Shown here in pieces: positions 3,074 to 42,420 of a DNA stretch of 42,420 nucleotides. The stretch is from UHGV virus genome UHGV-0094761; one strand, 5' to 3'. The notes beneath the pieces were generated by a model. That model searched no databases and had not been told where the DNA came from. It saw nothing but the letters and a program-made list of their open reading frames with translations. Source of the DNA: a virus. The first letter of the stretch is position 1; every line of letters starts with the position of its first letter. The position numbers were made by a program, and so were the translations under genes.

Positions 3074-3492
3074 GCCGTAGCCCCTTCTTGATATTTTTCG
3101 AACCAGAACACAACCGGCTTTTCGACTACTTCAACCAGGCCAAATCGTTCAGCGGTGCGGAAGTTGACACTGCTCTTGCGCCCGCGCTCAACCTGTAGAG
3201 ATATTTGTTTTCTGAACATCTCCAGCGAGTAAGAGGTTTTGAACAAGTTGCAGGGAGCGCATGCCGGAAACTGATTTTCCAGGGTATCAGCGTAGATATT
3301 CCGCACCTCTCCAGTAGCTTTGAGCTTGAAAATGCCTTTTTCAGCGGCCTTCATATCCTGCTCAGATATTCTCGCCACTGGCTGCACATGGTCAGCATGC
3401 CAGCCTTTCTCTGGTAGTTCACAGCCACAATAAGCACAGCGACCGCCGAACTTCATGCGCAACTCTGCACGTTGTTTTTTCGTCAGCGCCAT
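3070..3492 (-). CDS. HNH endonuclease
   Basis: 140 aa; CAYCGC...HADHVQP...CAPCN zinc-finger/HNH pattern; AAGGGGGAG RBS upstream of ATG at 3492. Confidence 0.8.
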   Translation of the reverse strand: MALTKKQRAELRMKFGGRCAYCGCELPEKGWHADHVQPVARISEQDMKAAEKGIFKLKATGEVRNIYADTLENQFPACAPCNLFKTSYSLEMFRKQISLQVERGRKSSVNFRTAERFGLVEVVEKPVVFWFEKYQEGATA

Positions 3493-3493
3493 C

Positions 3494-3892
3494 TCACTCC
3501 CCCTTCACGCCAATGCCAGCGGCGGCAAGCGCATCACGAAATGCACCAACAACTGCACAGGTGTTAAACATGTCATCGTTGATGCTGCCATCGTCGTTAC
3601 GGTAATCGGCTGGTAATTTAACGGTCACCTTACGCGCCTCCAGTTCTGCTATGCGCTTCTCTGCGGCTTCCAGTGCCTCCACAAGCCTTTCGATTTTTAA
3701 AAATGCTGCATACGCCAAATCAGAAATAGGTCGCTCGAACTGAATTTCTTTGCCATTTTCGTTTTCAATAATTGATTCGAAAATAGCCCCTGCAACAGGG
3801 GACTCTTGTAGTTCGCGTAGTTGTTTTGCCGTTTCCAGCGCATTGACTATCAGCATGTCGGTACGCAGCGCCTGTTTGTTGAGTGCTGTCAT
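3494..3892 (-). CDS. Hypothetical protein (coiled-coil)
   Basis: Start placed at the internal ATG at 3892 (MTALNKQ...), which overlaps the upstream stop as ATGA; the ORF track's longer start at 3967 would overlap the upstream gene. Confidence 0.5.
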   Translation of the reverse strand: MTALNKQALRTDMLIVNALETAKQLRELQESPVAGAIFESIIENENGKEIQFERPISDLAYAAFLKIERLVEALEAAEKRIAELEARKVTVKLPADYRNDDGSINDDMFNTCAVVGAFRDALAAAGIGVKGE

Positions 3893-4383
3893 TGGGCTTC
3901 CTCCAGTTTCGATTTGCGCAGTGCTTCTTTGTAACTTGCCTTTGCCGCTTTCTTTGTCGGCATCCAATCACCGCGAACGTCATAATACGAATCCCAATAC
4001 GCCCGCGAACGGCGGACCATGCGGTATTCCCATTTGTACCGGCCAACTTCACGGTCCTCGTAAACCGGCAACTCAATCCCCAGCCACTCCCCAAACGATT
4101 CGCAGACTTCTGAGTGAAGATAATCATCGTAACGAGTACGTTTCTTCGGCTCTGGAAGTGCAGAAATTGCCGCTTCCTCGCCTTTTTCTGTGACGTGGTA
4201 AAGCGTTCCACCACCCACAAAATCAGGCGCGGGACGGGAGGTAGCGAAACCATCAGATACCAGTTCTTCCCACTTCACGTTATCCGTATGCCCTTCGCCA
4301 GCCAGGAAATAATTACGATATGGAGTGCGGTTTCGCTCACTGATGCCCAGCGCATGCTGCATGAGTTCAATTCCAGTGCTCAT
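3889..4383 (-). CDS. Hypothetical phage protein (164 aa)
   Basis: Protein-like ORF; ATG at 4383 overlaps the stop of the upstream 84-aa gene (ATGA). Confidence 0.6.
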   Translation of the reverse strand: MSTGIELMQHALGISERNRTPYRNYFLAGEGHTDNVKWEELVSDGFATSRPAPDFVGGGTLYHVTEKGEEAAISALPEPKKRTRYDDYLHSEVCESFGEWLGIELPVYEDREVGRYKWEYRMVRRSRAYWDSYYDVRGDWMPTKKAAKASYKEALRKSKLEEAQ

Positions 4384-4634
4384 AGCGCGGTTCCCTGTCT
4401 GGCTTTGTTCAATAGCTGGTTAAACATCATGGTTAGGCTGTTACTACACCCAAACGGCATATCGTTAACACGGTAAGTAGGAATTCCCTTGCGAACACCA
4501 GACTTCACGATCCGGCCGGTGCCATAGAGTTGCGATAATGCGCCAGCGACCGCGGGTGTCTTTTTGTTCATACCTTTGGCGATTTCACCGCTGGTGGTAT
4601 TCGGATGAGCCTGGAGATATTCAAATACGGTCAT
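4380..4634 (-). CDS. Small hypothetical protein (84 aa), possible winged-helix DNA-binding
   Basis: Protein-like ORF in the coupled early-left chain. Confidence 0.5.
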   Translation of the reverse strand: MTVFEYLQAHPNTTSGEIAKGMNKKTPAVAGALSQLYGTGRIVKSGVRKGIPTYRVNDMPFGCSNSLTMMFNQLLNKARQGTAL

Positions 4635-35930: not shown

Positions 35931-36371
35931 ATGTTTAGAGGTATGGCAGTATCTATGTTAGCTGTGGTTATTTTGAGTGGTTGCTCTAATCAAGAGGCCA
36001 TCAAAAAACACACTGCATCTGGTAAACCTGAAGCGGAATATCCAGGTAAAACTAAAGAACAGGTAAAGGACGCGTTAGTTTCTTATTGTAACCAAAAAGG
36101 ATTGTCAGTATTTGAATCTACAGAATCACTTGTAATATGTGGAAAGCAGACTGATAGCGTATTGGCACAAATGCTCGTGGGTAATTCATATTCAACCCCA
36201 TCTATGGCAAAGATTAGATTTACTATAGCTTCGGTAAATAATGCCCCGAAAGTATGGAGTGATATGTGGATTGAAAGCCAAATGCCAGGAGGACAGTTAA
36301 ATCAGATGCCATCAAAAAATAATACAGATATTAACTCAGTGCAAAATATGCTTGATAATCTACAGCCATAA
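35931..36371 (+). CDS. Lipoprotein moron inserted between K and I (unknown function)
   Basis: 146 aa; signal peptide with lipobox LSGC; strongly AT-rich; has its own terminator; lambda has no gene at this position. Confidence 0.6.
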   Translation: MFRGMAVSMLAVVILSGCSNQEAIKKHTASGKPEAEYPGKTKEQVKDALVSYCNQKGLSVFESTESLVICGKQTDSVLAQMLVGNSYSTPSMAKIRFTIASVNNAPKVWSDMWIESQMPGGQLNQMPSKNNTDINSVQNMLDNLQP

Positions 36372-36433: not shown

Positions 36434-37015
36434 ATGGCACAGATAATACTCTGTGGAGTTCTTGGTAAGACGTTTGGGAAAGAACATTTTCGATTAATTG
36501 ATAGAGTCGGAGAAGCAGGTGTTGCGTTATCAAAAACAATACCCGGATTTGAAAAATTCATGATTTCGAGTAAGCGTCGTGGCATTACATACGCTATTTT
36601 TAAGGGGAAGAAGAATATCGGTCTTGACGACTTTGGTTTTCCTGTTTCTGATGAAGTTATTCGCATTGTTCCAGTAATTATCGGTAGTAAACGCTCTGGT
36701 CTGTTACAGACTATCTTAGGTGCTGTCATTGTTATTGCATCAGCCATCGGTAGCTATTTTGCACCGGGCAACCCAATTTCCGCATTTGGATTTAAGGTTG
36801 GTGCAGCAATGATGATTGGTGGTGTAGTTCAAATGCTATCGCCACAGCCAGCAGGACTTGCCAGCAAACAGGATGCCGAAAATCGGGCATCGTATGCATT
36901 CGGTGGTGTAACTAACACTGCTGCTCAGGGTAATCCAGTTCCGCTTCTTTATGGTCGCAGACGTATTGGCGGGGCGATCATCTCTGCCGGTATATACGTC
37001 GAAGACCAGCAATAA
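36434..37015 (+). CDS. I: Tail assembly protein I
   Basis: Start at ATG 36434 (MAQIILCGV...), downstream of the terminator; ubiquitin-like N-terminal domain and Gly/Ala-rich hydrophobic C-terminus, as in lambda gpI. Confidence 0.75.
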   Translation: MAQIILCGVLGKTFGKEHFRLIDRVGEAGVALSKTIPGFEKFMISSKRRGITYAIFKGKKNIGLDDFGFPVSDEVIRIVPVIIGSKRSGLLQTILGAVIVIASAIGSYFAPGNPISAFGFKVGAAMMIGGVVQMLSPQPAGLASKQDAENRASYAFGGVTNTAAQGNPVPLLYGRRRIGGAIISAGIYVEDQQ

Positions 37016-37036
37016 CCAAAGCAATCTTCCTTTCAG

Positions 37037-37059
37037 GCTACCTTATGGTGGCTTTTTTT
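37037..37059 (+). terminator. Terminator-like hairpin between I and J
   Basis: GCTACC-ttat-GGTGGC (one G-U pair) followed by 7 T (37053-37059), 12 nt before the J start. Confidence 0.4.
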
Positions 37060-37070
37060 ATGGGCGTAAT

Positions 37071-40000
37071 ATGGCTACAGCAACCCCGATTAAAGGCCGC
37101 AAGGGCGGCAGTTCCAGTTCAAGAACCCCTACCGAACAGCCAGATGATCTGCAATCTGTAGCGAAGGCCAAAATCCTCGTTGCGCTTGGTGAAGGGGAGT
37201 TTGCAGGACAGCTAACCGGCAAAGATATTTACCTAGACGGAACGGCGCTGGAGAACGCCGACGGCTCCCAAAACTTTAGCGGCGTGACGTGGGAGTTTCG
37301 CGCGGGAACGCAGGCACAAAATTACATTCAGGGAATTCCCGGTACCGAAAACGAAATCAATGTTGGAACTGAAGTATCAAGCGCTACTGCCTGGACGCGC
37401 ACCTTCACCAACACCCAACTATCAGCCGTTCGCCTGCGACTGAAATGGCCTTCACTGTTTAAGCAGGAGGACAACGGCGATCTGGTAGGGTATTCCATCA
37501 ATTATGCGATAGACCTGCAGACTGATGGTGGGACCTGGCAAACCGTACTTAATACCAGTGCAACCGGCAAAACGACGTCTGGTTATGAGCGCAGCCACCG
37601 TATTGATTTACCGCAGGCTGGCAGCACCTGGACAATCCGACTGCGTAAGATCACCGCTGATGCAAACAGCGCGAAGATCGGCGACACGATGACGCTGCAG
37701 AGTTTTACCGAGGTGATTGACGCCAAACTGCGCTACCCGAATACCGCGCTGCTGTACATCGAATTCGACTCGAGTCAGTTTAACGGTTCAATACCGCAGA
37801 TCTCCTGTGAGCCTCGCGGGCGCGTGATCCGTGTTCCTGATAATTACGACCCTGAAACGAGGGCTTACAGCGGTACATGGCAGGGCGCGTTTAAGTGGGC
37901 CTGGACTGATAACCCGGCGTGGATATTTTACGATCTGGTGATTACCGATCGTTTTGGTCTGGGTAATCGCCTGACTGCAGCCAACATCGATAAATGGACG
38001 TTGTACCAGGTATCGCAGTATTGCGATCAGCCGGTACCGGACGGAAAGGGTGGAAGCGGGACAGAGCCACGCTATACCTGTAACGTCTATGTTCAGGACA
38101 GGAATGACGCTTACACTGTGCTGCGTGACTTTGCGGCTATATTCCGGGGTATGACGTACTGGGGCGGTGATCAGATTGTTGCGCTTGCCGATATGCCGAG
38201 AGATGTGGATTACGCTTACACCCGCGCTAACGTTATCGACGGACGCTTTACCTATTCCAGCAGCACGACAAAAACGCGGTATACCACGGCGCTGGTTTCC
38301 TGGTCTGATCCGGGTAACGCCTATGCAGATGCGATGGAGCCGGTGTTTGAGCAGCCTCTGGTGGCACGGTACGGATTTAATCAGCTGGAAATGACAGCCA
38401 TCGGCTGCACCAGGCAGTCAGAAGCGAACCGTAAGGGGCGCTGGGGTATTCTCACCAACAACAAGGATCGCGTTGTTTCGTTTGATGTCGGGCTGGACGG
38501 AAACATTCCGCAGCCGGGATACATCATCGCCGTGTCAGACGAGCTTCTGTCCGGCAAAGTTATGGGCGGTCGTATCAGTACCGTTAACGGTCGCGTGATA
38601 AAACTTGACCGCGTAGCTGATGCAGCAGCAGGCGATCGCCTGATTCTCAACCTTCCCTCCGGCGCGTCACAGAGCAGGACTATTCAGGCGGTTAACGCGG
38701 AATTTGTCACAGTCACCACGGCATACAGTGAGACGCCACATGCCGAAGCTGTATGGGTGGTTGAGTCAGATGAACTCTACGCCCAGCAGTATCGTGTTGT
38801 CAGTGTCTCCGATAACAATGATGGTACCTTCTCGATTACCGGCGCATGGCACGACCCGGATAAATATGCCCGTATCGATACCGGAGCCATCATTGACCAG
38901 CGGCCGGTGAGTGTGATCCCGCCGGGTAACCAGTCGCCGCCGGCTAACATTGTGATCAGCTCGTTTTCAGTGGTTCAGCAGAATATCAGCGTTGAGACCA
39001 TGCGGGTGAGCTGGGACCAGGCGCAGAACGCCATCGCCTACGAGGCACAGTGGCGCCGCAATGATGGTAACTGGGTAAACGTGCCGCGCAGCTCCACCAA
39101 CTCATTTGATGTATCGGGTATTTATGCAGGGCGCTACCTCGTGCGTGTGCGTGCCATTAATGCCGCTGAAATTTCCTCTGGCTGGGGCTATTCCGAAGAA
39201 AAAACGCTGACGGGTAAGGTGGGAAATCCGCCAAAACCTGTCGGCTTTGCGACAACGCCGATCAACTGGGGGATTCGCCTGAACTGGGGATTCCCGGCTA
39301 ACACCGGGGACACGCTGAAAACGGAAATTCAGTACACCGCGAACAGTGATTTCTCAAATCCTCTGCTGTTGTCTGATGTGCCTTATCCTTCTGCCGAATA
39401 CACTCAACTGGGATTAAAAGCGGGGCAGGAATTCTGGTACCGCGCGCAGCTGGTAGACAGAACGGGTAATGAATCAGGCTGGACCGACTGGGTTCGTGGA
39501 GAATCTAATGCGAATGCTGACGACTACCTGGGCGATATTGCAGATGACTTTCTCACATCTGCCGATGGTGACCGCCTGACAGGCGACATTGATACCAATC
39601 TCGAAGCCGCTTTGCAGAACGCGCTGGCCAACCATGCAACCGTGGAACACCAGTGGGCGCAGTACGGCGAGGTACGTGCGGATATTCTGGTGGTTAAAAC
39701 GACCATTGCTGATGTTGATAAAGCGATGGCTGAAATGTCGACGCAGGTGCAGGCGCAGTTCAATGATGTGACTGCCGCGCTGGAAGATAAGCTCACCGCC
39801 GTGGTTGATGCGACCGGGGCATCTGCAATTTACACCCTTAAAACCGGGGTTCGAATAAACGGTGTGATGTATAACGCCGGGATGTCGATCGCGGTACTGG
39901 CGGAAGCGGGTAAGCCGGTAGTCACCCGCGTCGGGTTTAACGCTAATCAGTTCGTCCTGATGAGTGGCAGTGGTGATACGCAATATTCACCGTTTGCCAT

Positions 40001-40256
40001 TATCAACGGTCAGGTATTTATCAGCGATGCGTTTATTCAGTATAGCCAAATCACGCTGGCAAAAATTGGTGAGCTGCGATCCGCTAATTATGTACAGGGA
40101 CAAACCGGCACCATCATGAAATCAGACGGGACGTTTGAAATGAATGGGGCGGTTGCCGGAGAGGGTGCAACGAAAATGACCAATCTCAATTACAGCGTTA
40201 AAGATGGCAATGGCGTTCTCCGCGTGCAGATTGGCAAATTAACAGGGGTATTCTGA
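37071..40256 (+). CDS. J: Tail tip / host specificity protein J (central fibre)
   Basis: Start at ATG 37071 (MATATPIKGRKGG...); about 1060 aa; conserved gpJ core (NTALLYIEFDS..F, YTCNVYVQDRNDAY) and FN3-like repeats; C-terminal receptor-binding region differs from lambda. Confidence 0.9.
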   Translation: MATATPIKGRKGGSSSSRTPTEQPDDLQSVAKAKILVALGEGEFAGQLTGKDIYLDGTALENADGSQNFSGVTWEFRAGTQAQNYIQGIPGTENEINVGTEVSSATAWTRTFTNTQLSAVRLRLKWPSLFKQEDNGDLVGYSINYAIDLQTDGGTWQTVLNTSATGKTTSGYERSHRIDLPQAGSTWTIRLRKITADANSAKIGDTMTLQSFTEVIDAKLRYPNTALLYIEFDSSQFNGSIPQISCEPRGRVIRVPDNYDPETRAYSGTWQGAFKWAWTDNPAWIFYDLVITDRFGLGNRLTAANIDKWTLYQVSQYCDQPVPDGKGGSGTEPRYTCNVYVQDRNDAYTVLRDFAAIFRGMTYWGGDQIVALADMPRDVDYAYTRANVIDGRFTYSSSTTKTRYTTALVSWSDPGNAYADAMEPVFEQPLVARYGFNQLEMTAIGCTRQSEANRKGRWGILTNNKDRVVSFDVGLDGNIPQPGYIIAVSDELLSGKVMGGRISTVNGRVIKLDRVADAAAGDRLILNLPSGASQSRTIQAVNAEFVTVTTAYSETPHAEAVWVVESDELYAQQYRVVSVSDNNDGTFSITGAWHDPDKYARIDTGAIIDQRPVSVIPPGNQSPPANIVISSFSVVQQNISVETMRVSWDQAQNAIAYEAQWRRNDGNWVNVPRSSTNSFDVSGIYAGRYLVRVRAINAAEISSGWGYSEEKTLTGKVGNPPKPVGFATTPINWGIRLNWGFPANTGDTLKTEIQYTANSDFSNPLLLSDVPYPSAEYTQLGLKAGQEFWYRAQLVDRTGNESGWTDWVRGESNANADDYLGDIADDFLTSADGDRLTGDIDTNLEAALQNALANHATVEHQWAQYGEVRADILVVKTTIADVDKAMAEMSTQVQAQFNDVTAALEDKLTAVVDATGASAIYTLKTGVRINGVMYNAGMSIAVLAEAGKPVVTRVGFNANQFVLMSGSGDTQYSPFAIINGQVFISDAFIQYSQITLAKIGELRSANYVQGQTGTIMKSDGTFEMNGAVAGEGATKMTNLNYSVKDGNGVLRVQIGKLTGVF

Positions 40257-40570
40257 TGTCATGGGGAATTCAGACGTGGGACGCAAATGGCGTCCCTAAT
40301 AACTACGGCATTAAACCTGTTTCTGTGGTGGGAATCATCGATCTTGCTTTAGGTCAGAAAACAGGAAGCTACCAGTTCAACCTTGAGCCTGGCTTAAAGG
40401 TTGGGTTTGCAGTTGGTACTCTGGAGGATAAAGGGACAATAAGTTACACAGATAAAAGAAATATTATTGCATCTGGAAACACCATAACAATACAGCCTTC
40501 AGGTAGTGATGGGATTAATGATTACCCGGCAGTCAAAGTGCAGTTAATCGTTTTTGCGGAGACTGCGTAG
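40256..40570 (+). CDS. Hypothetical protein (104 aa) downstream of J, paralogous to the next gene
   Basis: ATG overlaps the J stop (TGATG); shares the motif WG-x2-(T/I)WDA-(N/E)-G with the following ORF. Confidence 0.55.
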   Translation: MSWGIQTWDANGVPNNYGIKPVSVVGIIDLALGQKTGSYQFNLEPGLKVGFAVGTLEDKGTISYTDKRNIIASGNTITIQPSGSDGINDYPAVKVQLIVFAETA

Positions 40571-41245
40571 ATGGCTAAATATGGCGCATTGATTTCATTA
40601 CCTAACGGGAACCCTTTTATCACGCCTGATTCCACACCAATGACGCTTTACCGGAAAGTCACTGTAAACTCAACTTTTGGAGGGGATTTTAACAGTGCTT
40701 CTGCGTCCGTGACTGTCGACGGTCAGAAGGGAGGGATTGCATTTGCACGAACCAGCGCCCCGGCGAAGATATCAGCTTCAAAAAGTGGCAACACGTTCAG
40801 TGTTGATGCGTCTAATTACAGAGGTTCGGCTTTCGTGCTGGAGGCGTATTTTTTTGCCATATATCCGCTTACCCTTCCGGCCTGGGGTGTGGCTATATGG
40901 GATGCCGAAGGGACACTGGTACTTACGAATGAGTCCCGGGTATTAAGCGACCTTACAACTATAGGCTCACCCGGCGCTGCAACGGGTGGGCTTAACATCG
41001 ATACATACATGGCAGGCAAATGGGCCGTAAATCCGATGGGGCTGGGATCTGTTCTCCTTCATGCTGGTTCGGCACCCGGTGGACAGCCAATAATTCAGTC
41101 TGTGGATGTGGGTACAGGTTGCTTCAATGACGGTGCGGGAACGAGAATAAAAGGACTTTCATCAACAACAGCAAGCGGCTCTTCAATCGGAACGACGAAT
41201 AGCGGGATTGTAATAACGGCGATAAACACAGCCGTATATGATTAA
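40571..41245 (+). CDS. Hypothetical beta-rich protein (224 aa) downstream of J
   Basis: Starts immediately after the previous stop; Gly/Ser/Thr-rich; contains the same WGVAIWDAEG motif. Confidence 0.55.
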   Translation: MAKYGALISLPNGNPFITPDSTPMTLYRKVTVNSTFGGDFNSASASVTVDGQKGGIAFARTSAPAKISASKSGNTFSVDASNYRGSAFVLEAYFFAIYPLTLPAWGVAIWDAEGTLVLTNESRVLSDLTTIGSPGAATGGLNIDTYMAGKWAVNPMGLGSVLLHAGSAPGGQPIIQSVDVGTGCFNDGAGTRIKGLSSTTASGSSIGTTNSGIVITAINTAVYD

Positions 41246-41353
41246 ACCGATCGATTTAAACGATCAATTTAAGAATATTGATCTATTAAAACTATTTTTA
41301 TTATTCAACTCCATTGGTTATTTTTTGTTTAAATAATTAACTCTGGTGTCGAA

Positions 41354-41593
41354 ATGAAAAATATAATTATTCCCGTTATTGCATGTCTGGTGCTTTCTGC
41401 ATGTTCAGGACCTGTTCTGGAGAAACAGAAACCGGTTTGTCAGGCTGAGTTAGTGGCTGGTGGACTGCCCCAGTCAGTGCAGATTTACGGTGTGCGAAAA
41501 GTTGCTAATCAGACTGAGTACAGAGCCGGTTATCCATTTAACTGGCGATGGGTGAATAAAAATAACTTCACCAGTTCGAATTGCCCTCAATGA
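41354..41593 (+). CDS. Small lipoprotein (79 aa), candidate Cor-like superinfection-exclusion protein
   Basis: Signal peptide with lipobox LSAC; AT-rich upstream region; sits between J and the tail fibre gene; followed by a terminator. Confidence 0.5.
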   Translation: MKNIIIPVIACLVLSACSGPVLEKQKPVCQAELVAGGLPQSVQIYGVRKVANQTEYRAGYPFNWRWVNKNNFTSSNCPQ

Positions 41594-41607
41594 AACACCA
41601 AAAATAA

Positions 41608-41627
41608 CCCGCTCCGGCGGGTTTTTT
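41608..41627 (+). terminator. Rho-independent terminator after the small lipoprotein gene
   Basis: CCCGC-tccg-GCGGG followed by 6 T. Confidence 0.6.
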
Positions 41628-41651
41628 ATTATCTGAATTCAGGAGATATCC

Positions 41652-42420
41652 ATGTCAGCAGGAACCTTAACCCTGACGAATAACTCTGCTGCGGTCGCTG
41701 GCAGCGGGACCGCGTTTACCACCGAGGTGGCGGCCGGAGATTTTATTGTTGTCACTGTCGGCGGCGTTCCCTATACGCTCCCGGTTAAATCAGTGGAAAG
41801 CGGTACAGCGTTGACGCTGGTCAGTAATTTCACAGGGCCAACACAATCTGGTGCGGCCTGGTCTGCCGTTCCTCGTGTGGCGCTGAACATGGTTACTGCC
41901 GCGCTGGTGGCTCAGAGCGCAGAAGCGCTTCGAGGCCTGAACTACGACAAGCAAAACTGGCAGCAGTTTTTCACCGCTGACGGTGATGTAACGATCACAC
42001 TGCCTGACACCAGTCAGACGACAGGTCCATCAGCGAAAAAGTTGATCAATAGTGTGGCCGATAAAGCAGACTCGACTGATGCGCGGCTTGACACGATAAA
42101 TGGTAAGTCTGGCGGGGTTGTTGATGGCGAGGTAGCACTCACTCGTTCAGCAACAGAAAATATTTCAAACAGGTTTGTATTTACTACCATCGTCAATGCG
42201 GAGGGGCTTACAGCATGGGCTGAGAGACATGACTTCGCAGATGGTTCTAATCGTCAGATTCTAAATTTGGGGTCCGTATCAGGAGTGCGTAAAGCCGTAT
42301 TTAACGCCGAGGGTGGAATTCTGTGTAAAGCGGGGATCAATAACTTCTCGGCATTGCGTACCGGGTACTTTATAGACTATGAGTCCGGTCCTGTGGGTCT
42401 TTATATTGACTCGACTCGAA
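41652..42420 (+). CDS. Tail fibre protein (3'-truncated by the window end)
   Basis: ATG at 41652 with an AGGAGA RBS; MSAGTLTLTNNSAAVAGSGTAFTTEVAAGDFIVVTVGGVPYTLPVKSV...; frame stays open to the window end, so it is absent from the ORF track. Confidence 0.65.
   Translation, partial: MSAGTLTLTNNSAAVAGSGTAFTTEVAAGDFIVVTVGGVPYTLPVKSVESGTALTLVSNFTGPTQSGAAWSAVPRVALNMVTAALVAQSAEALRGLNYDKQNWQQFFTADGDVTITLPDTSQTTGPSAKKLINSVADKADSTDARLDTINGKSGGVVDGEVALTRSATENISNRFVFTTIVNAEGLTAWAERHDFADGSNRQILNLGSVSGVRKAVFNAEGGILCKAGINNFSALRTGYFIDYESGPVGLYIDSTR

What the first reader, a model, noticed from the sequence alone, without database searches (positions are those of the whole stretch)
40256..41630. Paralogous protein pair sharing a WG-x2-WDA-x-G motif after J, followed by a small Cor-like lipoprotein
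Two consecutive genes after J (104 aa and 224 aa) share the motif WGIQTWDANG / WGVAIWDAEG, suggesting duplication of a beta-rich domain; the first is translationally coupled to J (TGATG). They are followed by a 79-aa lipoprotein (lipobox LSAC) with its own terminator, at the position where Cor-type exclusion lipoproteins occur in some lambdoid and T1-like phages. The pair could be tail-tip accessory or receptor-binding proteins, or a host-range or exclusion module.
Basis: partly seen in the sequence, partly recalled or inferred. Interest (0 to 1): 0.45.

Follow-up and report, generated by a model that had tools for sequence, protein, structure and literature searches.

The report
Phage tail-tip receptor module plus Cor
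The two genes after the tail-tip gene J and the small lipoprotein are the known gp22-gp23-cor cassette of FhuA-dependent phages (N15, phi80, HK022, T1), here in a Citrobacter prophage; the pair is truly related and is a two-gene version of a receptor-binding protein whose structure is solved.

Summary
J (to 40256), orfA (104 aa, 40256-40570), orfB (224 aa, 40571-41245), a 79-aa lipoprotein (41354-41593) and its terminator are all present. J and orfA overlap as TGATG; orfA and orfB abut as TAGATG.

This is the known gp22-gp23-cor cassette of N15, phi80, HK022, HK225 and T1, the "FhuA-type RBP locus downstream of gpJ" of the BASEL papers. Here it sits in a Citrobacter freundii lambdoid prophage.

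BLASTP shows only the 11-residue motif. Diverse profiles show real homology:
- orfA matches the N-terminal domain of orfB (hhalign 91.7%, 80 columns).
- orfA occupies the place of the missing first ~100 residues, though orfA-to-DUF6453 similarity itself is not significant.

Best reading: orfA and orfB form the receptor-binding cap on the trimeric J tip, probably for FhuA. Cor blocks that receptor in the lysogen.

This is a new member of a known kind. The function is inferred, not shown.

The parts
37071..40256 (+). Central tail fibre / tail-tip protein J. The ORF is open from 36951, but the likely start is MATATPIKG at 37071. Its last ~100 residues are the conserved tip to which the downstream proteins are proposed to attach.
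   Evidence: One search gives the ORF. The C-terminal 199 aa match 1394 phage records, best HK225 at 78.5%. The last 100 aa are conserved across phages carrying different downstream alleles.
40256..40570 (+). orfA, 104 aa, of the N15/phi80 gp22 family. It has an N-terminal conserved hairpin segment (residues 1-21) and a seven-strand beta-sandwich (23-103). It is a paralogue of the first domain of orfB.
   Evidence: PHROG 557 E 3e-25. N15 gp22 59.6% identity. AF2 pLDDT 82, with residues 1-20 at 53-62. hhalign to orfB residues 1-81: 91.7%.
40262..40291 (+). Hairpin motif copy 1 (orfA W3-G12, WGIQTWDANG).
   Evidence: G4 is the only invariant column and G12 is nearly invariant in the diverse orfA alignment.
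40571..41245 (+). orfB, 224 aa, of the N15/phi80 gp23 family. It has two beta domains (24-97 and 129-219), each preceded by a conserved hairpin segment. It is the proposed receptor-binding protein.
40580..40624 (+). Hairpin motif copy 2 (orfB Y4-T18, YGALISLPNGNPFIT).
   Evidence: G5 and G13 are nearly invariant. pLDDT is below 50 for residues 1-20. The segment aligns with motif copy 3 at 89% probability.
40883..40927 (+). Hairpin motif copy 3 (orfB W105-T119, WGVAIWDAEGTLVLT).
   Evidence: G106 is the only invariant column of 45 diverse orfB relatives. pLDDT is below 50 for residues 101-121.
41246..41353 (+). AT-rich spacer (about 30% G+C) ahead of cor, the likely site of a separate cor promoter as annotated in phi80. 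No consensus promoter was found here.
   Evidence: G+C falls to 0.295 at 41200-41399. The phi80 record annotates -35, -10 and a start site before cor. The simple scan found no + strand site.
41354..41593 (+). cor: a 79-aa lipoprotein precursor with lipobox LSAC (Cys17). It is a superinfection-exclusion / lysogenic-conversion protein.
   Evidence: PHROG 1119 E 8e-26. 53-56% identity to phi80, N15 and HK225 Cor, with invariant C17, C29, C77 and RAGYPF.
41606..41633 (.). Intrinsic terminator: a 7-bp G+C-rich stem, a 4-nt loop and a T run. It scores on both strands.
41652..42420 (+). Start of the side tail fibre gene (stf-like). It runs off the window and is context only.
   Evidence: PHROG 1980 / 17834, E 1e-67 to 8e-69. 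It occupies the same position as stf in phi80 and gp25 in N15.

Best explanation
orfA and orfB are late, J-coupled structural genes. Their products together form the receptor-binding cap of the central tail fibre.

What is shown here:
- orfB is a remote homologue of DUF6453, the single-chain receptor-binding protein of phages Oekolampad and Rtp, which binds the outer-membrane protein LptD as a monomer.
- orfB corresponds to the last two-thirds of that protein.
- orfA is a paralogue of the first domain of orfB.
- Each of the three modules (orfA, orfB domain 1, orfB domain 2) begins with the same conserved hairpin motif.
- orfA is a separate gene at the position of the missing first ~100 residues of DUF6453.

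What is inferred:
- The three hairpin segments dock the pair onto the threefold-symmetric C-terminal tip of J. This converts a trimer into a single asymmetric binding surface.
- The variable beta domains of orfB bind the receptor, most probably the host FhuA. All the closest relatives with a known receptor use FhuA, and a Cor gene follows.
- cor is a separate unit with its own AT-rich upstream region and terminator. It is expressed in the lysogen and makes an outer-membrane lipoprotein. That lipoprotein blocks the same receptor from the periplasmic side and so excludes FhuA-dependent phages.
For: Identity of the cassette:
- PHROG 557, 425 and 1119 hits.
- The order J-gp22-gp23-cor-stf is the same in phi80, N15 and HK225.
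- About 345 phage records carry each gene.
- The closest relatives with a known receptor (JLBYU60, Teewinot, Envy, phi80, T1, HK022, N15) are FhuA-dependent (PMC10373560; PMC13164509).

Structural role:
- TGATG and TAGATG coupling to J.
- Neither protein has a signal peptide or a hydrophobic helix.
- The pair occurs without cor in Klebsiella phage KL, Serratia phage ZDD2 and several prophages. Every distant orfB relative examined has a 92-113 aa orfA-like gene immediately upstream.

Link to a proven receptor-binding protein:
- hhalign of diverse orfB against the Rtp44 family gives 90.9-92.8%, E about 1e-6, score 49-50. Shuffled controls reach at most 21.
- An orfB-family member (P0371) passes the Pfam DUF6453 gathering score: 25.6 bits against a cut-off of 25. 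Its residues 42-145 match model positions 144-242 of 291.

Paralogy and the triple hairpin:
-.
- The motif glycines are the most conserved residues.
- The motif segments have low AF2 confidence in the monomers. This fits an intermolecular interface, but it is also what a shallow alignment would give.

Shared docking site:
- The last 100 residues of J are conserved across phages with the 1+2 pair and with the fused DUF6453 protein.

Published models:
- AF2-Multimer places the orfB homologue of JLBYU60 as a monomer contacting all three J chains, and on FhuA (PMC12309495).
- AF3 supports the FhuA-associated family as the receptor-binding protein (bioRxiv 10.64898/2026.04.02.716166).

Cor; the phi80 annotation; an AF3 model of Cor on the periplasmic face of FhuA (PMC13164509).
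Against: - No experiment shows either protein in virions or bound to a receptor. The T1 cryo-EM map did not resolve the distal J region (PMC11945409).
- orfB itself has no Pfam hit and no sequence hit in the PDB.
- The orfA-to-DUF6453 comparison is not significant. The equivalence of orfA to the first DUF6453 module rests on position, length and motif only.
- The docking role of the hairpins is inference. Low pLDDT may simply reflect a shallow alignment.
- The stoichiometry of orfA is unknown. A published model used three copies.
- The family is not restricted to FhuA. Related pairs occur in Warwickvirus JLBYU07, which does not use FhuA alone, and in Stx phage 24B, which uses BamA. The receptor call for this Citrobacter prophage therefore rests on Cor and on the nearest relatives.
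Confidence: 0.62

Rival explanations
1. orfA and orfB are membrane-associated helpers of Cor, part of a three-gene superinfection-exclusion cassette rather than virion proteins.
For: [quoted passage not shown] The KanT1 paper, which found no fold hits, assumed a role related to exclusion because of the link with cor (PMC13164509).
Against: Neither protein has a signal peptide, lipobox or hydrophobic helix. They are coupled to J, whereas cor has its own spacer and terminator and lies on the opposite strand in T1. The pair occurs without cor in KL, ZDD2, L009 and L013. orfB is related to a protein solved on the extracellular face of its receptor.
Confidence: 0.07
2. One or both proteins are assembly chaperones for the J tip or the side tail fibres and are absent from the finished particle.
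For: They lie between J and stf, where fibre assembly genes often sit. orfA is small and gives only generic beta-sandwich matches. The conserved N-terminal segments could bind J transiently.
Against: There is no match to Caudo_TAP or other fibre-assembly families. HK225 and L010 carry a separate assembly-protein gene next to the fibre gene. orfB is related to a protein that itself binds the receptor. A tentative 21-kDa virion band was reported for a homologue (PMC12309495).
Confidence: 0.13
3. J's own C-terminal tip binds the receptor. orfA and orfB only decorate or stabilise it, or bind a primary, reversible receptor.
For: Lambda J binds LamB through its own C-terminal domain (own knowledge; PMC8594841). 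TolC-, LamB- and NupG-specific J domains exist in related phages (bioRxiv 10.64898/2026.04.02.716166).
Against: The last 100 residues of J are conserved across phages with different receptors, so they are poor candidates for the specificity determinant. Receptor specificity tracks the downstream locus (PMC8594841).
Confidence: 0.12

Closest known systems
gp22-gp23-Cor cassette of N15, phi80, HK022, HK225 and T1 (PHROG 557 / 425 / 1119), the 'FhuA-type bona fide RBP locus downstream of gpJ' of the BASEL collection
   Same: Gene order, sizes (100-104, 224 and 77-79 aa), coupling to J, cor with its own terminator, and stf downstream. Sequence identity is 43-60% for the two proteins and 53-56% for Cor.
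   Different: The host is Citrobacter freundii. There is no megablast-level DNA match to any deposited phage. orfA carries a short insertion (TISYTDK) that most relatives lack.
DUF6453 (PF20051): Rtp44 and the Oekolampad (Bas18) receptor-binding protein, solved on LptDE (PDB 9RPT)
   Different: It is one 311-318 aa chain rather than two genes of 104 + 224 aa. It lies on the opposite strand in Rtp and Sfin-6. It binds LptD, not FhuA. Its exclusion lipoprotein (Rtp45) is unrelated to Cor. orfB itself does not reach the Pfam threshold.
T5 pb5 with Llp
   Same: The logic is the same: a monomeric receptor-binding protein at the tip of a trimeric central fibre binds FhuA, and a small lipoprotein blocks FhuA from the periplasm (PMC9586334).
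Lambda J C-terminal receptor-binding domain
   Same: Both sit at the distal end of a J-type fibre. A paper proposes that the orfA-like protein resembles this Ig-like domain (PMC12309495).

Membership tests
N15/phi80 gp22 family (PHROG 557) | Protein of about 100 aa, full-length similarity to the family profile, encoded directly after J | tested here: met
   E 3.4e-25 over residues 1-102. 59.6% identity to N15 gp22. Position confirmed.
N15/phi80 gp23 family (PHROG 425) | Protein of about 224 aa, full-length similarity, encoded directly after the gp22 homologue | tested here: met
   E 1e-54 over residues 1-224. 47.6% identity to phi80 gp23.
Cor (PHROG 1119) | Sequence similarity, lipoprotein signal with lipobox cysteine, conserved Cys pair and RAGYPF | tested here: met
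   E 8.2e-26. The alignment shows invariant C17, C29, C77 and RAGYPF.
Cor (PHROG 1119) | Blocks FhuA-dependent phages when expressed | not testable with these tools
   Needs exclusion assays. Known for phi80, N15, T1 and mEp167 Cor (annotation; PMC13164509).
DUF6453 (PF20051) receptor-binding proteins | Reaches the Pfam gathering score | tested here: not met
   orfB has no Pfam family at E up to 1. Two of 45 family members match the model; the one identified, P0371, scores 25.6 bits against a cut-off of 25.
DUF6453 (PF20051) receptor-binding proteins | Shared fold and remote profile similarity with the solved protein | tested here: met
DUF6453 (PF20051) receptor-binding proteins | Single chain of about 311 aa holding all three modules | tested here: not met
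   Here the modules are split into 104 + 224 aa. orfB maps to Rtp44 residues from about 105 to 311.
DUF6453 (PF20051) receptor-binding proteins | orfA equals the first module of DUF6453 | tested here: inconclusive
   hhalign 2.6%. Only length, position and the N-terminal motif agree.
Outer-membrane / membrane-associated protein (the PHROG names; Lom-like) | Signal peptide, transmembrane segment or beta-barrel | tested here: not met
   The maximum 19-residue hydropathy is 0.86 for orfA and 1.31 for orfB, and neither has an N-terminal signal. The models are soluble beta-sandwiches.
Tail fibre assembly proteins (Caudo_TAP / Tfa) | Similarity to the family | tested here: not met
   No such hit in Pfam or PHROGs.

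The most novel reading that the evidence does not exclude
The receptor-specificity alleles downstream of gpJ, recently called unrelated families, would share one ancestral design. That design is three 'hairpin plus beta-sandwich' modules, encoded either as one chain (DUF6453, about 311-318 aa) or as a 1+2 gene pair (orfA + orfB, 297-328 aa in total). The three conserved hairpins would plug one asymmetric cap onto the threefold J tip, while the variable sandwiches carry the receptor specificity (FhuA, LptD and others). Gene fission or fusion and module swapping would then explain how small siphoviruses change receptors.
Probability: 0.35. Interest if true: 0.6.

Novelty: new member of a known kind. 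Interest (0 to 1): 0.38.

Why it matters
T1 and phi80 are classic phages, yet the protein that binds FhuA has never been shown by experiment. This locus is another natural variant of the candidate module, in Citrobacter.

The analysis adds three things:
- The gp23-type protein is related, in fold and in profile, to a receptor-binding protein solved on its receptor.
- The gp22-type protein is its paralogue.
- Both carry a thrice-repeated conserved hairpin that is a good candidate for the J-docking element.

This gives concrete targets for engineering host range, such as swapping the variable domains or keeping the hairpins. It also argues against the 'membrane protein' labels now spread by annotation pipelines.

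Tried and rejected
- Megablast of the region against phages found nothing.
- Sequence searches of the PDB with the single proteins and with profiles found nothing useful.
- Pfam on the window proteins found nothing.
- Profile comparison with shallow alignments (Neff about 2.2-2.4) gave only the 13-column motif, or insignificant alignments. Significance appeared only after adding distant relatives.
- orfA against the DUF6453 family stayed insignificant.
- Foldseek against BFVD gave only uncharacterised phage proteins with TM 0.4-0.5.
- Two odd hits of the representative search were set aside. P0321 is a J-orfB chimera, probably a deletion or misassembly. P0383 is a repetitive, low-complexity protein.
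- The simple promoter scan found no consensus site before cor.
- The window's lipoprotein at 35931-36371 is not related to phi80 MorF.
- The T1 cryo-EM paper does not resolve the distal fibre.
- The Cronobacter tail-fibre paper concerns the lateral fibre and is not relevant.
Full report
**What is there.** The window carries a lambdoid prophage with the usual late tail genes. The J-type central fibre gene ends at 40256. It is followed by orfA (40256-40570, 104 aa), orfB (40571-41245, 224 aa), a 108-bp AT-rich spacer, a 79-aa lipoprotein gene (41354-41593), a stem-loop terminator (41606-41623 plus a T run), and the start of a side tail fibre gene at 41652. The J stop and the orfA start overlap as TGATG, and the orfA stop abuts the orfB start as TAGATG. 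orfB is 100% identical to a hypothetical protein of Citrobacter freundii, and nearly all close relatives are from Citrobacter, so the host is C. freundii or a near relative. No deposited phage matches the DNA at megablast level.

**What it is called.** orfA, orfB and the lipoprotein hit PHROG 557, 425 and 1119 (Cor) at E 3e-25, 1e-54 and 8e-26, each over its full length. tblastn finds each of orfA and orfB in about 345 phage records. These include N15 (gp22, 59.6%), phi80 (gp22 and gp23), HK022, T1, Dhillonvirus phages such as JLBYU60 (52.9%), and Klebsiella Webervirus phages. The annotated records of phi80, N15 and HK225 show the same order: J, gp22, gp23, cor with its own terminator, then stf. 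In phi80 the depositors annotate a separate promoter for cor and call it a moron.

The literature calls this the FhuA-type 'bona fide RBP locus downstream of gpJ' (PMC8594841). It notes that T1, HK022, N15, ES18 and phi80, all FhuA-dependent, share it (PMC13164509, citing Wietzorrek 2006). So the locus is a new member of a known cassette.

**Are the two proteins related?** BLASTP gives only the 11-residue motif. Profile comparison with shallow alignments (Neff about 2.2-2.4) also gives only 12-13 columns. I then collected distant relatives:
- 110 cluster representatives of orfB from the 1.84-billion-protein library, nearly all stand-alone proteins of 200-245 aa.
- The small genes immediately upstream of distant orfB relatives, plus the phage homologues.

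With these diverse alignments, orfA aligns with orfB residues 1-81 at 91.7% probability, E 7.9e-7, over 80 columns. orfA residues 2-27 also align with orfB 104-130 at 90%. The two halves of orfB align over their first 29 residues at 89%. Column-shuffled controls (40 each) reached scores of at most 14-21, against 34-37 observed. Reversed profiles scored 9-14.

orfA corresponds to the first domain of orfB. The motif glycines are the most conserved positions of both families: G4 is the only invariant column in diverse orfA, and G106 the only one in diverse orfB.

**Structure.** AF2 gives orfA a seven-strand beta-sandwich (residues 23-103, pLDDT 82). It gives orfB two beta domains (24-97 and 129-219, pLDDT 76). 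In both models the conserved hairpin segments have the lowest confidence: orfA 1-20 at 53-62, and orfB 1-20 and 101-121 below 50. High conservation without a confident intramolecular position fits an intermolecular interface. It could also be a weakness of the shallow alignments used.

**Link to DUF6453.** The Rtp homologue of that protein, Rtp44 (311 aa), belongs to Pfam DUF6453. Three results tie orfB to it:
- Diverse orfB against the Rtp44 family gives 90.9-92.8% probability, E 1e-6 to 4e-7. orfB 55-135 aligns to Rtp44 155-239. Shuffled controls reach at most 21, against 49-50 observed.
- One orfB-family member, P0371, passes the curated Pfam threshold for DUF6453 (25.6 bits against 25). 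Its residues 42-145 match model positions 144-242 of 291.
- Both mappings place orfB on the last two-thirds of DUF6453, leaving about 100 N-terminal residues unmatched.

orfA has the right length, sits upstream, and starts with a similar motif (MSWGIQTWDANG against MAQGIYIDLNDG). Its direct comparison with DUF6453 is not significant, however. The Rtp44 family also shows three conserved G-containing segments, at about residues 4, 116 and 210.

A recent preprint describes the FhuA-, BtuB-, LptD- and YncD-associated proteins as unrelated families (10.64898/2026.04.02.716166). For the FhuA and LptD types, my results indicate a distant common origin.

**Other alleles.** Downstream of related J genes I found three further arrangements:
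- JLBYU07: a 91-aa lipoprotein, a 92-aa orfA-like gene and a 204-aa orfB-like gene, on the opposite strand.
- Henu7: 101-aa and 217-aa genes with the same three motifs (PGLQAWDASGNLV, SGFEVRNNAGVVL, SGYLDVFDASGNLV), plus a 112-aa secreted protein.
- Sfin-6: a 76-aa lipoprotein and a 318-aa DUF6453 protein.

The total is always about 300-330 residues, either as 1+2 modules or fused. The last 100 residues of J are conserved across all these alleles. That J tip type occurs in 1394 phage records, about four times as many as carry orfA and orfB. Conserved hairpins facing a conserved J tip, with variable domains between them, make the hairpins the natural candidate for the J-docking element.

**Function.** Several points argue against the 'outer membrane' and 'membrane associated' labels, and against the idea that the pair merely assists Cor (PMC13164509):
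- Neither protein has a signal peptide or a hydrophobic helix.
- They are coupled to J, whereas cor is a separate unit and is inverted in T1.
- The pair occurs without cor in Klebsiella phage KL, Serratia phage ZDD2 and several prophages.

No fibre-assembly family matches either protein. Published AF2-Multimer models place the JLBYU60 orfB homologue as a monomer touching all three J chains and docking on FhuA. A tentative 21-kDa virion band was reported for a Pseudomonas phage homologue (PMC12309495). The T1 cryo-EM map does not resolve this region (PMC11945409).

I conclude, at about 0.6 confidence, that orfA and orfB form the receptor-binding cap of the J fibre. orfB would carry the receptor contact, and FhuA is the likely receptor. 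The receptor call rests on the nearest characterised relatives and on the presence of Cor. Related pairs in other phages use other receptors.

**Cor.** The lipoprotein has the lipobox LSAC (Cys17). It is 53-56% identical to phi80, N15 and HK225 Cor and 35% identical to T1 Cor. It shares invariant C29, C77 and RAGYPF. It sits behind an AT-rich spacer (G+C 0.30) and before a strong terminator. [quoted passage not shown] This is inferred, not tested.

**Verdict.** The locus is an ordinary member of a known but experimentally unresolved cassette. The new points are the orfA-orfB domain homology, the triple hairpin, and the relation of the gp23 family to the solved DUF6453 receptor-binding protein. 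Together these suggest that the pair is a split version of that protein.

Noticed in passing
window 35931-36371 (+): A 146-aa lipoprotein gene (signal MFRGMAVSMLAVVILSGCS) is inserted between the K-like and I-like tail genes. It hits PHROG 3152, of unknown function. It looks like a moron, similar in kind to phi80 MorF, but the two proteins are not similar.
   Followed up: partly
window 36951-37071: The J ORF is open from 36951 and overlaps the end of the I-like gene (to 37015). The conserved J-type N-terminus (MATATPIKGRKGG) begins at 37071, which is the more likely start.
   Followed up: no
L014 (JLBYU07) 3120-4283, L016 (Henu7) 3106-4480, L017 (Sfin-6) 3143-4332: Other alleles next to J lie on the opposite strand. 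They also consist of a small secreted or lipoprotein gene plus either a 1+2 pair (92+204 aa, 101+217 aa) or a fused 318-aa DUF6453 protein. All carry three G-x7-G-type hairpin motifs.
   Followed up: partly
L011 2717-6274: In one metagenomic contig the orfA-like/orfB-like pair (93 + 204 aa) converges on the J-like gene instead of following it. The pair therefore moves as a unit, independently of J's orientation.
   Followed up: no
P0321 (337 aa): This database protein joins the C-terminal part of a J protein, almost identical to window J around residues 770-930, directly to the last ~180 residues of an orfB-like protein. It is probably a deletion in a decaying prophage or a misassembly.
   Followed up: no
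window 39954-40253 (J residues 1002-1101): The window's J departs from the family at some nearly invariant tip positions. It reads QTGTIMKSDG where relatives have xxGWKLDKGG, and LRSANYV where they have FIQSNNYV. This may co-vary with its orfA/orfB variant.
   Followed up: no
window 41606-41623: The terminator after cor scores on both strands. It could also stop antisense transcription coming from the fibre region. phi80 annotates overlapping terminators on both strands at the same place.
   Followed up: no
L006 (Klebsiella phage KL) 164-1141: In Webervirus KL the J homologue appears split. A 325-aa 'tail fiber protein' gene carrying the conserved J tip follows a longer 'tail protein' gene, ahead of the orfA/orfB pair.
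   Followed up: no
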